From assembly GCA_048882505.1 (NCBI GenBank), contig JBHLRO010000004.1, positions 80,193 through 112,192 of the forward strand: a stretch of 32,000 nucleotides of DNA, written 5' to 3'. This DNA comes from Candidatus Thorarchaeota archaeon. Lineage in GTDB: Archaea > Asgardarchaeota > Heimdallarchaeia > Hodarchaeales > Hodarchaeaceae. The notes beneath the pieces were generated by a model that was given only the letters and a program-made list of their open reading frames with translations, was not told the origin of the DNA and did no database searches. This document shows positions 1,296 through 2,690 of the stretch, in pieces (position 1 is the stretch's first letter; every line of letters begins with the position of its first letter). Both the position numbers and the translations under genes were made by a program.

Positions 1296-2690
1296 ATGTT
1301 TGGCGATCCGAGTTCATTCTGTCAACGGATAGCTAAACAAAGTCGACTTCTTGAAGGTGAAGAAGGGGTCAGAAAGATAATTTTGGAAATGTACCGCAGG
1401 CAAGACCATAAGATCTCAAACAAAGAACTCGCAAGACTTGTGAAGATTCCTGTCCCAGTGTTATCTGCTGTAAGAAGTGAGTTGTTAAATGCAGGATTCC
1501 TTGAAACGAAGAGTATAATATCTCCAGATGCCCTTAAATGGATCAAAACCGCCCTAAAGTTAGCCTACCCGTTTCCTTTCTTTCAGGAGTTTATTTCATC
1601 TCTGGATAGCCCCCTCTCTCAAACTTATTATGATTTTTTCAAACCAGTTGTCACCTATCTAGATCAAAGACCACCTCCTGCTTACGAATATGATCAGTCA
1701 AGAAGTACATTTGAAACTGTCCTGAAAAGGGCCTTGTTAATGCTTCTGAATGGAGATGTAGAGGGAAAAAAAATTGCTATTCTTGGTGATGATGATGGCG
1801 TCTCATTAGCACTCGCCCAGTTACAGTGCGCTGAAAGAATACTTGTTTTGGATATAGACCCTAGAGTTGTCGAATACATCGAGTCTTTTGGTACAGAATA
1901 TGGGTTGACTTCCGTTTTAGAAGCACGCAACTATGATATACGAGGGACATTGAGTGACCCCTGGCTTCACGGGTTTAATGTGTTCGAAACAGATCCCCCT
2001 TACACTGTTGCGGGGTTTCGCCTCTTTATTCAACAGGCTTTAAAATTGCTGGATCCATACAAAAGCGGAAAAGGATATATTTCGTTTGGAACTAAATCTC
2101 CCCATTCGACTTGGTTATGTCAACAGTATCTTCTAGAGAATGGATTTACAATAAGCGACTATTTTTCTGGATTTAATGAATATTTAGGATCTTCAATTTT
2201 GGGAAATAGATCCAACCTATATGTTGTTAGCAATGTACCGCAAAAATATAGCATTCCACAAAGCAAGCGCCCCAATCTTGCGATTTATACCGCAGATGAA
2301 GTACAAAAGAATAAAGATATGGTTAAAAACCTTCCGTCCGTAGGATTCCAGATTATCGCTGAATTTTATGGTGTCAAACATAAACTGCTTACAAGCGCAT
2401 CTCTACTCCAGGATATACTCCGACGTGGGATCGCTTTAAGCAGACTTAAGCTAGATGAACTATTTGTCAAAGAATACACTCCTTTTGGATTTTCAATTAT
2501 CGCAATATTAATCGAAAGCCATTGTCACCTACACACTTGGCCTGAACATCAGTATTTAGCATTAGATCTGTTTGTATGCGAAGAGCAAGAGAAAGCTGAA
2601 ACTTTGTACAACTTCCTGATAGATCAACTTGAACCAGAGGATTATCACTCAAGAAGATTGTTTCGAGGTACTCCAGAAAGGTTTTCTTAA
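1296..2690 (+). CDS. Fusion: BpsA-type (branched-chain polyamine synthase) aminopropyltransferase + C-terminal pyruvoyl-dependent AdoMet decarboxylase-like domain
   Basis: N-part has RPPPAYEYDQ, GDVEGKKIAILGDDD, VLDIDPR, ETDPPYT, FNEY as in BpsA. C-part from ~2340 has IIAEFYG...LIESHCHLHTWPEHQYLALDLFVC, with the ESH autocleavage site at 2514-2522. Confidence 0.88.
   Translation: MFGDPSSFCQRIAKQSRLLEGEEGVRKIILEMYRRQDHKISNKELARLVKIPVPVLSAVRSELLNAGFLETKSIISPDALKWIKTALKLAYPFPFFQEFISSLDSPLSQTYYDFFKPVVTYLDQRPPPAYEYDQSRSTFETVLKRALLMLLNGDVEGKKIAILGDDDGVSLALAQLQCAERILVLDIDPRVVEYIESFGTEYGLTSVLEARNYDIRGTLSDPWLHGFNVFETDPPYTVAGFRLFIQQALKLLDPYKSGKGYISFGTKSPHSTWLCQQYLLENGFTISDYFSGFNEYLGSSILGNRSNLYVVSNVPQKYSIPQSKRPNLAIYTADEVQKNKDMVKNLPSVGFQIIAEFYGVKHKLLTSASLLQDILRRGIALSRLKLDELFVKEYTPFGFSIIAILIESHCHLHTWPEHQYLALDLFVCEEQEKAETLYNFLIDQLEPEDYHSRRLFRGTPERFS

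What the first reader, a model, noticed from the sequence alone, without database searches (positions are those of the whole stretch)
1296..2690. BpsA aminopropyltransferase fused to its own decarboxylated-SAM supply enzyme
One ORF carries a complete BpsA-type domain (GDDD, DID, TDPPY motifs) followed by a pyruvoyl AdoMetDC-type domain with an intact E|SH cleavage site (E407/S408) and the conserved DLFVC cysteine. Established: BpsA makes branched polyamines from dcSAM and is associated mainly with (hyper)thermophiles such as Thermococcus kodakarensis; class 1b AdoMetDC self-cleaves at Glu-Ser. Inference: cleavage would leave the AdoMetDC beta chain tethered to BpsA, giving a channelled dcSAM-to-aminopropyl unit. 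AdoMetDC homologs can also be Arg/Orn decarboxylases, so the substrate is not certain. I cannot confirm whether this fusion has been described.
Basis: partly seen in the sequence, partly recalled or inferred. Interest (0 to 1): 0.75.

Follow-up and report, generated by a model that had tools for sequence, protein, structure and literature searches.

The report
Aminopropyltransferase fused to SAM decarboxylase
One gene of a Hodarchaeales (Asgard) archaeon joins a BpsA-family aminopropyl-transferring enzyme to the small self-cleaving enzyme that makes its donor, decarboxylated SAM. The fusion is real and is the genome's only recognisable enzyme of either kind, but it recurs widely in archaea and bacteria, and its transferase half is not the thermophile branched-polyamine type.

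Summary
Window 1296-2690 (+) is one 464-aa ORF carrying a BpsA_C domain and a complete class 1b AdoMet decarboxylase domain.

- **Decarboxylase half.** It looks like a bona fide AdoMetDC. All processing and catalytic residues are kept, plus the Pro that marks AdoMetDC against arginine-decarboxylase paralogues. It is the only SpeD homologue in a 94.6%-complete genome.
- **Transferase half.** It belongs to a large, mostly mesophilic, uncharacterised BpsA subfamily (TDPPY, Lys at the Glu259 site, invariant Y-T-x-D/E, no C-terminal acidic carrier tail). "Branched polyamine synthase" is therefore not supported.
- **Genome context.** No SpeE and no carboxyspermidine pathway enzymes were found above cut-off, so this fusion is the only recognisable aminopropyltransferase.
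- **Rarity.** The fusion is not rare. It occurs in 19 of 21 genomes of the genus, in Loki- and Odin-labelled Asgard MAGs, and in CPR bacteria. It is also in cultured bacteria such as Bacteroides intestinalis, Xenorhabdus and Vagococcus. All are annotated only as "adenosylmethionine decarboxylase".

No paper in the searched library describes it. This scan has already flagged the same fusion in at least 14 other genomes. It is best filed as a new variant of the known AdoMetDC-aminopropyltransferase fusions. The acceptor substrate is unknown.

The parts
1296..2690 (+). Whole fusion ORF, 464 aa (P0001)
   Evidence: full-length homologues
1296..1625 (+). N-terminal helical (winged-helix-like) domain, residues 1-110, as in standalone BpsA proteins
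   Evidence: AF2 model helices 5-122. Foldseek aligns about 350 columns to full-length BpsA structures.
1647..2204 (+). BpsA_C catalytic (Rossmann-type) domain, residues 118-303; matches Pfam profile positions 6-190 of 243
   Evidence: PDB alignments to 2qm3, 5xnc and 6j27
1785..1796 (+). GDDD motif (G164-D167), which positions the aminopropyl group of dcSAM in Tk-BpsA (G157-D160)
   Evidence: Invariant or nearly so in all groups. Role taken from PMC12979288.
1989..2003 (+). TDPPY motif. D233 corresponds to Tk Asp225. The Tyr marks the non-canonical subfamily (canonical proteins have TDPP[ED]T).
2094..2096 (+). K267, at the site of the acceptor-binding Glu259 of Tk-BpsA. Lys in 57 of 57 Hodarchaeales fusions; Lys or Arg in nearly all of the subfamily.
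2286..2300 (+). Y331-T332-A-D334-E335. Y and T are invariant and position 334 is D or E across the subfamily. This motif marks the end of the transferase part.
2301..2333 (+). 11-residue linker (VQKNKDMVKNL), low model confidence. It stands where standalone relatives carry a basic tail or a zinc ribbon, and where canonical BpsA carries its acidic lid.
   Evidence: pLDDT 59-67 for residues 320-350
2334..2687 (+). Class 1b pyruvoyl AdoMet decarboxylase domain, residues 347-464
   Evidence: The alignment to T. maritima AdoMetDC residues 2-104 has no gaps.
2514..2519 (+). Self-processing site E407|S408. S408 is the pyruvoyl precursor (T. maritima E62/S63).
2532..2543 (+). H413-T-W-P416. H413 corresponds to Tm His68. 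P416 is the only Pro in the conserved centre, so it is taken to be the Pro reported as conserved in true AdoMetDC but not in SpeDA.
   Evidence: PMC10407285
2577..2579 (+). C428, corresponding to Tm Cys83 (catalytic proton donor)
1..297 (+). 3' end of a myo-inositol-1-phosphate synthase gene, first gene of the conserved co-directional gene row
333..1271 (+). UbiA-family prenyltransferase (DGGGP-synthase-like, below equivalog cut-offs), 24 nt upstream of the fusion
2718..3383 (+). Membrane protein with a weak CTP_transf_1 (cytidylyltransferase family) match, 27 nt downstream of the fusion. In relatives its start overlaps the fusion's stop.

Best explanation
The ORF encodes a bifunctional enzyme. 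The C-terminal 118 residues are a class 1b AdoMet decarboxylase proenzyme that cleaves itself between E407 and S408, turning S408 into the pyruvoyl cofactor. The 7-kDa alpha chain (408-464) then stays non-covalently bound to the beta strands (347-407), which remain covalently attached to the transferase. This domain converts SAM to decarboxylated SAM.

The N-terminal 346 residues are a BpsA-family aminopropyltransferase that uses this dcSAM, through its GDDD / D-I-D / TDPP site, to aminopropylate an amine acceptor. Because the genome shows no other SpeD, no SpeE and no carboxyspermidine route, this protein is the organism's only recognisable way to add aminopropyl groups.

The acceptor is most likely a simple polyamine or precursor (putrescine, agmatine or spermidine). 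The product need not be branched.

Shown here: domain content, conserved catalytic residues, folds, genomic uniqueness and wide recurrence. Inferred: self-cleavage, both activities, local hand-over of dcSAM and the identity of the acceptor.
For: - **Two domains above curated cut-offs:**
- **AdoMetDC half:** it aligns without gaps to T. maritima AdoMetDC. E11, S55, E62, S63, H68, P71 and C83 are all kept, and their equivalents are invariant in 57 Hodarchaeales homologues. The fold matches 1tlu at TM 0.87.
- **Transferase half:** GDDD, D188, D233-P-P, N294 and Y296 are conserved, and the best fold matches are BpsA structures.
- **Own genome (94.55% complete):** a single PF02675 hit and a single PF01861 hit, both this ORF. 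There is no PF01564 hit and no PvlArgDC hit, and nspC and carboxynorspermidine synthase match only far below cut-off.
- **bpsA-like and speD are a tight pair elsewhere:** of 80 species-level loci, 15 are fused and 41 have speD within 2.5 kb. In the sister family the two genes are adjacent.
- **The fused state changed at least 6-10 times** on BpsA-domain trees. This argues for a selective advantage in coupling the two activities.
- **Functional precedent:** AdoMetDC fused to SpeE-type transferases in Pelagibacter has both activities (PMC11107197).
- **Neighbouring GNAT acetyltransferases** in many bacterial loci fit a polyamine-like product.
Against: - No biochemical data exist for any member of this subfamily.
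- The transferase lacks two features that the 2026 review gives as central to BpsA catalysis: Glu259 (here Lys) and the C-terminal acidic aminopropyl-carrier cluster. The last ~50 Pfam profile positions are unmatched. Its mechanism and acceptor may therefore differ.
- SpeD homologues have repeatedly turned into Arg/Orn decarboxylases while keeping S63, H68 and C83 (PMC10407285).
- Channelling has no direct support. The model's inter-domain linker is of low confidence, and I could not inspect the model's coordinates.
- The conserved placement among lipid genes is not explained by a plain polyamine role.
Confidence: 0.78

Rival explanations
1. [quoted passage not shown] It would add aminopropyl groups to N4 of spermidine, fed by its own AdoMetDC.
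For: Pfam BpsA_C at E 3.6e-44. The best PDB sequence and fold matches are Tk- and Tth-BpsA. GDDD, the Asp225 equivalent and the Tyr290 equivalent are conserved.
Against: Lys267 replaces Glu259, and there is no C-terminal acidic cluster (roles from PMC12979288). No SpeE or carboxyspermidine route was found to make spermidine. Asgard genomes whose BpsA has the canonical motifs do carry SpeE, whereas this subfamily's genomes mostly do not. The subfamily is spread through mesophilic bacteria.
Confidence: 0.2
2. The decarboxylase half is a neofunctionalised SpeD homologue (pyruvoyl arginine or ornithine decarboxylase). It would supply the acceptor (agmatine or putrescine) rather than the donor.
For: Such switches are widespread and keep S63, H68 and C83 (PMC10407285). 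The genome lacks a PvlArgDC.
Against: The transferase would then have no dcSAM source, because this is the only SpeD homologue. The score is above the TIGR03330 equivalog cut-off. The Pro reported as fully conserved in true AdoMetDC is present, and the central motif is close to that of T. maritima. A PLP-dependent decarboxylase sits beside an agmatinase homologue and deoxyhypusine synthase elsewhere in the genome and can cover Arg/Orn decarboxylation.
Confidence: 0.08
3. The enzyme aminopropylates a membrane-lipid head group or another non-polyamine acceptor made by the surrounding inositol / ether-lipid genes.
For: The gene row MIPS - UbiA prenyltransferase - fusion - CTP_transf_1-like protein is kept, with overlapping or near-touching genes, across the whole genus. 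MIPS(-UbiA)-bpsA is kept in the sister family, where BpsA is only ~31% identical. A basic residue replaces the acidic acceptor-site residue. LPG_synthase_C-type domains are fused to or next to relatives. In T. kodakarensis, branched polyamine is found partly in the membrane fraction (abstract of PMC12175538).
Against: The link to these lipid genes is confined to one order and could be inherited synteny. Loki-type fusions have other, inconsistent neighbours. Across bacteria the recurrent partners are speD and GNAT acetyltransferases, which fit soluble polyamines. No aminopropylated lipid is known to me (own knowledge).
Confidence: 0.07
4. The fusion is an assembly or gene-calling artefact, that is, two adjacent genes wrongly joined.
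For: In the sister family the two genes are separate, adjacent and in the same frame. No contig of the independent study bridges the domain junction.
Against: An uninterrupted frame is seen in 19 genomes of the genus, including closed or near-closed chromosomes, and in about 60 protein clusters from NCBI, JGI, ENA and Logan. The junction region carries the conserved YT-x-D/E motif and runs directly into the first AdoMetDC strand.
Confidence: 0.01

Closest known systems
BpsA, N4-bis(aminopropyl)spermidine synthase (EC 2.5.1.128) of Thermococcus kodakarensis and Thermus thermophilus (PDB 5xnc, 6j27; P. furiosus 2qm3)
   Same: Same Pfam family and fold. Same N-terminal helical domain plus Rossmann-type domain. 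GDDD, D-x-D, TDPP and the Tyr290 equivalent are conserved. dcSAM is the presumed donor.
   Different: About 24-33% identity. TDPPY replaces TDPPE. Lys stands at the Glu259 site. There is no C-terminal acidic carrier lid; instead a Y-T-x-D/E motif runs straight into an AdoMetDC domain. The host is not a known thermophile and lacks SpeE. The product is unknown.
Class 1b AdoMet decarboxylase (SpeD/SpeH; T. maritima TM0655, PDB 1tlu/1vr7; Aquifex 2iii)
   Same: Gap-free alignment with the same length. The equivalents of E11, S55, E62|S63, H68, P71 and C83 are all present. Model TM 0.87 to 1tlu.
   Different: It is not a free-standing ~125-aa protein. Its N-terminus continues from a 346-residue transferase, so the 'beta chain' after cleavage would be 407 residues.
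AdoMetDC-aminopropyltransferase fusion proteins of bacteria (e.g. Ca. Pelagibacter ubique; PMC11107197)
   Same: One polypeptide carries both the dcSAM-making and the dcSAM-using activity. Both halves were shown to be active in those proteins.
   Different: There the AdoMetDC is N-terminal and the transferase is SpeE-type (PF01564). Here the order is reversed and the transferase is BpsA-type. Here the pyruvoyl-bearing alpha chain is the piece set free, whereas there it stays on the transferase (inferred from domain order).
The same BpsA_C + AdoMet_dc architecture in public records annotated 'adenosylmethionine decarboxylase' (Loki- and Odin-labelled Asgard MAGs, WWE3/Saccharibacteria, Bacteroides intestinalis DSM 17393, Xenorhabdus spp., Vagococcus fluvialis, Enterococcus, Erysipelothrix)
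   Same: Same two domains in the same order and the same transferase subfamily motifs.
   Different: 25-39% identity. Some carry a zinc ribbon between the domains or lack the N-terminal domain. One bacterial group has N-S instead of E-S at the cleavage site and Lys at the E356 position. None has been characterised in the searched literature.

Membership tests
BpsA family (Pfam PF01861) | Significant match to the BpsA_C profile | tested here: met
   151 bits against a cut-off of 27, but only profile positions 6-190 of 243
BpsA family (Pfam PF01861) | BpsA fold (N-terminal helical domain plus Rossmann-type domain) | tested here: met
   Foldseek top hits are 2qm3, 5xnc and 6j27, E 1e-19 to 1e-22. 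TM normalised by target length is only ~0.57 because the domain orientation differs.
[quoted passage not shown] | GDDD motif that positions dcSAM (Tk G157-D160) | tested here: met
   G164-D167, conserved in all groups
[quoted passage not shown] | [quoted passage not shown] | tested here: not met
   D233 and Y296 are present, and Y331 is probably the Tyr316 equivalent. Glu259 is replaced by invariant Lys267. The alignment lies next to an indel, but no acidic residue is within one position either side.
[quoted passage not shown] | Flexible C-terminal acidic cluster that carries the aminopropyl group (Tk E339, D342-E345) | tested here: not met
   After Y331-T-A-D-E come 11 mostly basic residues and then the AdoMetDC domain. 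Canonical-type Asgard BpsA sequences do show an acidic tail in the same alignment. Pfam positions 191-243 are unmatched.
[quoted passage not shown] | A spermidine supply (SpeE or an equivalent) in the same genome | tested here: not met
   No PF01564 hit. nspC and carboxynorspermidine synthase match only far below cut-off. Genome 94.55% complete.
[quoted passage not shown] | Forms N4-branched products from spermidine | not testable with these tools
   Needs an enzyme assay or polyamine analysis
Class 1b pyruvoyl AdoMet decarboxylase (SpeD/SpeH) | Match above the curated cut-offs of PF02675 and TIGR03330 | tested here: met
   87 bits against 25, and 83-86 bits against 75.65
Class 1b pyruvoyl AdoMet decarboxylase (SpeD/SpeH) | Processing and catalytic residues Ser63, His68 and Cys83 (T. 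maritima), with Glu62 and Ser55 | tested here: met
   S408, H413, C428, E407 and S400 in a gap-free alignment. All are invariant in 57 homologues.
Class 1b pyruvoyl AdoMet decarboxylase (SpeD/SpeH) | The Pro of the central motif, conserved in true AdoMetDC and not in SpeDA arginine decarboxylases (PMC10407285) | tested here: met
   P416 in HTWPE. The identification of the paper's marked Pro with this residue is my inference, because it is the only Pro in that region.
Class 1b pyruvoyl AdoMet decarboxylase (SpeD/SpeH) | Autocleavage and SAM decarboxylation | not testable with these tools
   Needs expression, SDS-PAGE or mass spectrometry, and an assay
Known AdoMetDC-aminopropyltransferase fusions (Pelagibacter type) | N-terminal AdoMetDC joined to a C-terminal SpeE-type (PF01564) transferase | tested here: not met
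   The order is reversed and the transferase is PF01861. There is no PF01564 match.

The most novel reading that the evidence does not exclude
In Hodarchaeales, and probably much of Heimdallarchaeia, an uncharacterised BpsA-family subfamily, fused to or paired with SpeD, has replaced SpeE as the cell's only aminopropyltransferase. If so, it makes the spermidine-type triamine needed for aIF5A hypusination by an enzyme unrelated to eukaryotic spermidine synthase. A bolder form of the same reading: its conserved place inside an inositol / ether-lipid gene row means that its acceptor is a membrane-lipid head group.
Probability: 0.3. Interest if true: 0.75.

Novelty: new variant of a known kind. 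Interest (0 to 1): 0.5.

Why it matters
Polyamine synthesis in the archaeal relatives of eukaryotes is unstudied. Current reviews state that BpsA is confined to thermophiles (PMC12979288). Here a BpsA-family enzyme, fused to its donor-making enzyme, is the only recognisable aminopropyltransferase in a Hodarchaeales genome. That genome still carries deoxyhypusine synthase, which normally needs spermidine.

If the fusion makes spermidine or an analogue, there is a second, SpeE-independent dcSAM route to triamines. It would also suggest that eukaryotic spermidine synthase was not inherited from a Hodarchaeales-like host.

More broadly, the same uncharacterised subfamily, with speD and often a GNAT acetyltransferase, sits in many ordinary bacteria, including gut Bacteroides and Xenorhabdus. 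One assay would therefore annotate thousands of genes now named only 'adenosylmethionine decarboxylase'.

Tried and rejected
- **Literature.** Seven full-text searches (BpsA + fusion, DUF43, Asgard + polyamine, aminopropylspermidine and others) found no description of a BpsA-AdoMetDC fusion or of a mesophilic BpsA. Absence from this library is not proof of absence elsewhere.
- **Canonical reference sequences.** The word-indexed homologue search with the transferase half did not reach the thermophile BpsAs, and the 150 best exhaustive hits did not include them either. Tk residues were therefore mapped through the printed PDB alignments and through two canonical-type Asgard sequences, not through Tk-BpsA in my own multiple alignment.
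- **Expression.** No RNA holder was listed.
- **Read support.** Contigs of the one independent study (X2) cover 1157-2167 and 2441-2968 but do not bridge the domain junction. The contig of a second sample (X3) starts 17 nt before the junction, too little to count as bridging.
- **Model coordinates.** They are not available in the script box, so distances between the two active sites and the domain interface could not be measured.
- **Complex prediction.** Not used. A homodimer of the AdoMetDC domain would probably pass simply by likeness to solved dimers.
- **Neighbours of the Loki-type fusions.** They were scanned for a shared lipid theme. Three of ten are membrane or isoprenoid-related proteins of different families (Caroten_synth, a squalene-cyclase-like protein, ICMT/PEMT). 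This is too inconsistent to count.
- **Alternative spermidine routes.** The saccharopine-dehydrogenase-like genes of the genome were checked as possible carboxyspermidine dehydrogenases. The best score is 36 bits against a cut-off of 800.
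Full report
**Observation**

Window 1296-2690 (+) is a single 464-codon frame with an ATG start and a TAA stop.
- Pfam finds BpsA_C (PF01861) at residues 118-303 (E 3.6e-44) and the whole AdoMet_dc profile (PF02675) at 353-458 (E 1.3e-24).
- NCBIfam's AdoMetDC equivalog TIGR03330 scores 83-86 bits against a cut-off of 75.65.
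The predicted cleavage products are 46.2 and 7.0 kDa.
- An AlphaFold2 model built on 57 homologues has mean pLDDT 89.5 and pTM 0.72, with low confidence only around residues 320-350.
- By Foldseek the model's two halves match the BpsA structures 2qm3, 5xnc and 6j27, and T. maritima AdoMetDC 1tlu (TM 0.87, rmsd 1.8 A).

The fusion is not an assembly artefact.
- The word-indexed search returned about 60 clusters of the same two-domain architecture at 45-86% identity. They come from NCBI, JGI, ENA and Logan, and the named ones are labelled Heimdall-, Hod- or Promethearchaeota.
- A six-frame scan found the uninterrupted full-length gene in 19 of 21 genomes of the window's genus.
- A contig of the probable source run covers the stretch without differences. 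Contigs from other samples cover parts of it but do not independently bridge the junction.

**The decarboxylase half**

Residues 347-450 align to T. maritima AdoMetDC residues 2-104 without a single gap. T. maritima residue n therefore corresponds to residue n+345 here.
- This places Glu11, Ser55, Glu62, Ser63 (the pyruvoyl precursor), His68 and Cys83 at E356, S400, E407, S408, H413 and C428.
- All six are invariant in 57 Hodarchaeales homologues.
- Li et al. (PMC10407285) show that SpeD homologues have often become arginine or ornithine decarboxylases while keeping S63, H68 and C83. They also report that a Pro in the conserved centre is fully conserved in true AdoMetDCs and not in the arginine decarboxylases.
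- The only Pro in that region is the one in HTWPE, and it is present here (P416).
- The genome (4.3 Mb, 94.55% complete) has exactly one PF02675 match, this ORF. If the domain were not AdoMetDC, the attached dcSAM-dependent transferase would have no donor.
- A PLP-dependent decarboxylase lies beside an agmatinase homologue and deoxyhypusine synthase on another contig. It can account for arginine or ornithine decarboxylation.

I therefore rate true AdoMetDC activity as likely and the neofunctionalised alternative as unlikely.

**The transferase half is not a canonical BpsA**

The 2026 review of branched polyamines (PMC12979288) lists the working parts of Tk-BpsA:
- the GDDD motif (157-160);
- Asp225, Glu259, Tyr290 and Tyr316 around the acceptor;
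- a flexible C-terminal acidic cluster (E339, D342-E345) that carries the aminopropyl group in a ping-pong reaction.

In the printed HMMER alignments to 5xnc and 6j27, GDDD, Asp225 (D233) and Tyr290 (Y296) are kept, but Glu259 aligns with Lys267. That Lys is invariant in 57 of 57 Hodarchaeales fusions and 9 of 9 Loki-type fusions. It is Lys or Arg in nearly all other members I aligned, fused or not.

The Pfam profile's last ~50 positions are unmatched. In their place is an invariant Y331-T332-x-[D/E]334 motif, 11 mostly basic residues, and then the first strand of AdoMetDC.

Standalone relatives end after the same Y-T motif with a basic tail or a CxxC...CPxC zinc ribbon.

Two Asgard sequences of the canonical type (G005, G293) show the thermophile pattern in the same alignment: TDPP[DE]T, an acidic residue at the 259 site, WYVS and an acidic tail.

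A pattern scan of species-representative genomes returned 80 loci of the TDPPY subfamily. They are mostly mesophilic bacteria (Paenibacillus, Brevibacillus, Clostridium, Tissierella, Bradyrhizobium, Actinomycetota, Patescibacteria) plus Bathyarchaeota and Heimdallarchaeota.

So the family is not confined to thermophiles, and this member cannot be filed as EC 2.5.1.128.

**Genomic logic**

- The own genome has no SpeE (PF01564) and no pyruvoyl arginine decarboxylase. Carboxynorspermidine decarboxylase and synthase models match only far below their cut-offs. It does have deoxyhypusine synthase.
- Among 21 genomes of the genus, only one (G067) has a strong SpeE hit.
- Heimdall-class sister families carry a standalone BpsA-like gene plus SpeD and also lack strong SpeE hits.
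- Asgard families with strong SpeE hits give P0001 matches that cover only the catalytic core (f10, f22, f24, f25). The two I checked by sequence (G005 of f10, G293 of f25) are canonical-type BpsA.

The fusion is therefore the only recognisable aminopropyltransferase system of this organism. This raises the possibility that it makes the cell's triamine itself rather than decorating spermidine.

**How common is the fusion?**

- An exhaustive phmmer search of 1.84 billion representatives gave 3772 hits at E<=1e-3. Among the best 150 are several length classes of BpsA_C + AdoMet_dc fusions (about 350, 440, 475-500 and 510-565 aa, the last class with a zinc ribbon in some members). There are also BpsA-GNAT and BpsA-LPG_synthase_C fusions.
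- Source names include Odin-, Loki-, Hod- and Promethearchaeota MAGs and Lachnospiraceae. Cultured bacteria with RefSeq entries are also present: Vagococcus fluvialis, Bacteroides intestinalis DSM 17393, Xenorhabdus species, Enterococcus and Erysipelothrix. Nearly all are named "adenosylmethionine decarboxylase".
- Of the 80 named loci, 15 are fused, 41 have speD within 2.5 kb and 24 show none nearby.
- On BpsA-domain trees the fused state changes at least 10 times (260 rows, FastTree) and at least 6 times (67 rows, IQ-TREE quick).
- The Asgard fusions (Hodarchaeales, the Loki-type family f20, Odin) form one starred clade (SH-aLRT 96), together with the two unfused genes of the sister family.
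- In that sister family, bpsA and speD are adjacent, co-directional genes separated by three stops within six codons. This is the obvious precursor, or remnant, of the fusion.
- This scan's earlier notes record the same fusion in at least 14 other genomes, with the same conclusions.

**Mechanism proposed**

- Shown: two intact domains, conserved catalytic residues, and an 11-residue junction.
- Inferred from the established behaviour of class 1b AdoMetDC: the proenzyme cleaves at E407|S408. The alpha chain (408-464, with pyruvoyl at its N-terminus) stays bound within the beta-sandwich, whose other strands (347-407) remain covalently linked to the transferase. The domain dimerises, as class 1b enzymes do.
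- dcSAM made there is used by the GDDD/TDPP site of the transferase.
- Compared with the characterised Pelagibacter AdoMetDC-SpeE fusions (PMC11107197), the order is reversed and the transferase family differs. Here the pyruvoyl-bearing chain is the piece that is released.
- Direct channelling is untested.
- The acceptor is unknown. The swaps from Glu to Lys and from TDPPE to TDPPY make the pocket less acidic. That fits a shorter or less cationic acceptor than spermidine, or one with an anionic group.

**Surroundings**

The gene lies in a tight co-directional row:
- myo-inositol-1-phosphate synthase (its 3' end, at 1-297);
- a UbiA prenyltransferase (333-1271);
- the fusion;
- a membrane protein with a weak CTP_transf_1 match (2718-3383).

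This order is kept in every genus member examined, often with overlapping stop and start codons. MIPS(-UbiA)-bpsA is also kept in the sister family, where BpsA is only ~31% identical. An earlier first-reader note suggested an aminopropylated lipid. I could neither support nor exclude that. Loki-type fusions have other neighbours, and bacterial relatives are typically followed by a GNAT acetyltransferase.

**Verdict**

It is best described as a new variant of the known AdoMetDC-aminopropyltransferase fusions. It is built on an uncharacterised, non-thermophile BpsA subfamily, is widespread in databases, and is not described in the literature I could search. The specific interest of this copy is that it is the sole aminopropyl-transfer system in a Hodarchaeales genome.

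Noticed in passing
window 1-3383: Tight co-directional gene row: inositol-1-phosphate synthase, UbiA prenyltransferase, the fusion, and a CTP_transf_1-like membrane protein. It is conserved in all examined genomes of the genus. MIPS(-UbiA)-bpsA is also kept in the sister family despite ~31% BpsA identity. A functional link between the aminopropyltransferase and inositol / ether-lipid synthesis is unexplained.
   Followed up: partly
G000:C24:34432-37644 (L008, L009, L005): Cluster of deoxyhypusine synthase (306 aa), a lysA-like PLP decarboxylase (434 aa, below the lysA cut-off; the only PF02784 hit in the genome) and an agmatinase-like protein (309 aa). It is a likely diamine-to-hypusine module, in a genome without SpeE.
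   Followed up: partly
G000:C17:55303-57325 (L014:6274-8590): Overlapping pair of a saccharopine-dehydrogenase-like protein (407 aa, only 36 bits to carboxynorspermidine synthase) and an arginase-fold protein (371 aa). It could be an unrecognised polyamine route. Three further Sacchrp_dh_C proteins are in the genome.
   Followed up: partly
L041:51-1601 (G079, sister family): bpsA-like and speD genes are adjacent and in the same frame, separated by three stop codons within six codons. This is the unfused counterpart of the fusion.
   Followed up: yes
G067:C1:4527515-4528974: The only genome of the genus with strong SpeE hits carries two SpeE genes in tandem, about 240 kb from its fusion gene. 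This may be a late acquisition.
   Followed up: no
L105, L120, L064, L132, L133; proteins P0102, P0155: In many bacteria the BpsA-like gene is followed by a GNAT acetyltransferase (16 of 75 loci), a HAD-like protein or a carrier-protein gene. Some relatives are fused to GNAT or LPG_synthase_C domains, which hints at acylated products.
   Followed up: partly
L131:8001-17506 (Xenorhabdus kozodoii): The Xenorhabdus fusion lies beside a fatty-acid desaturase, a Sacchrp_dh-like protein, a large polyketide synthase and an AMP-binding/carrier protein. This looks like a natural-product gene cluster.
   Followed up: no
proteins P0084, P0110, P0116 and relatives (bacterial ~440-aa fusions): This group mostly has N-S instead of E-S at the cleavage site, Asn after the Ser, and Lys at the E356 (T. 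maritima Glu11) position. Its decarboxylase half may have another substrate.
   Followed up: partly
window 16134-19127 (+): 997-aa protein with partial matches to BREX PglX adenine methyltransferases (80 bits, far below cut-off). It may be a defence-type DNA methyltransferase.
   Followed up: no
window 4869-5411 (-): O6-methylguanine-DNA methyltransferase (Ogt) homologue; ordinary.
   Followed up: no
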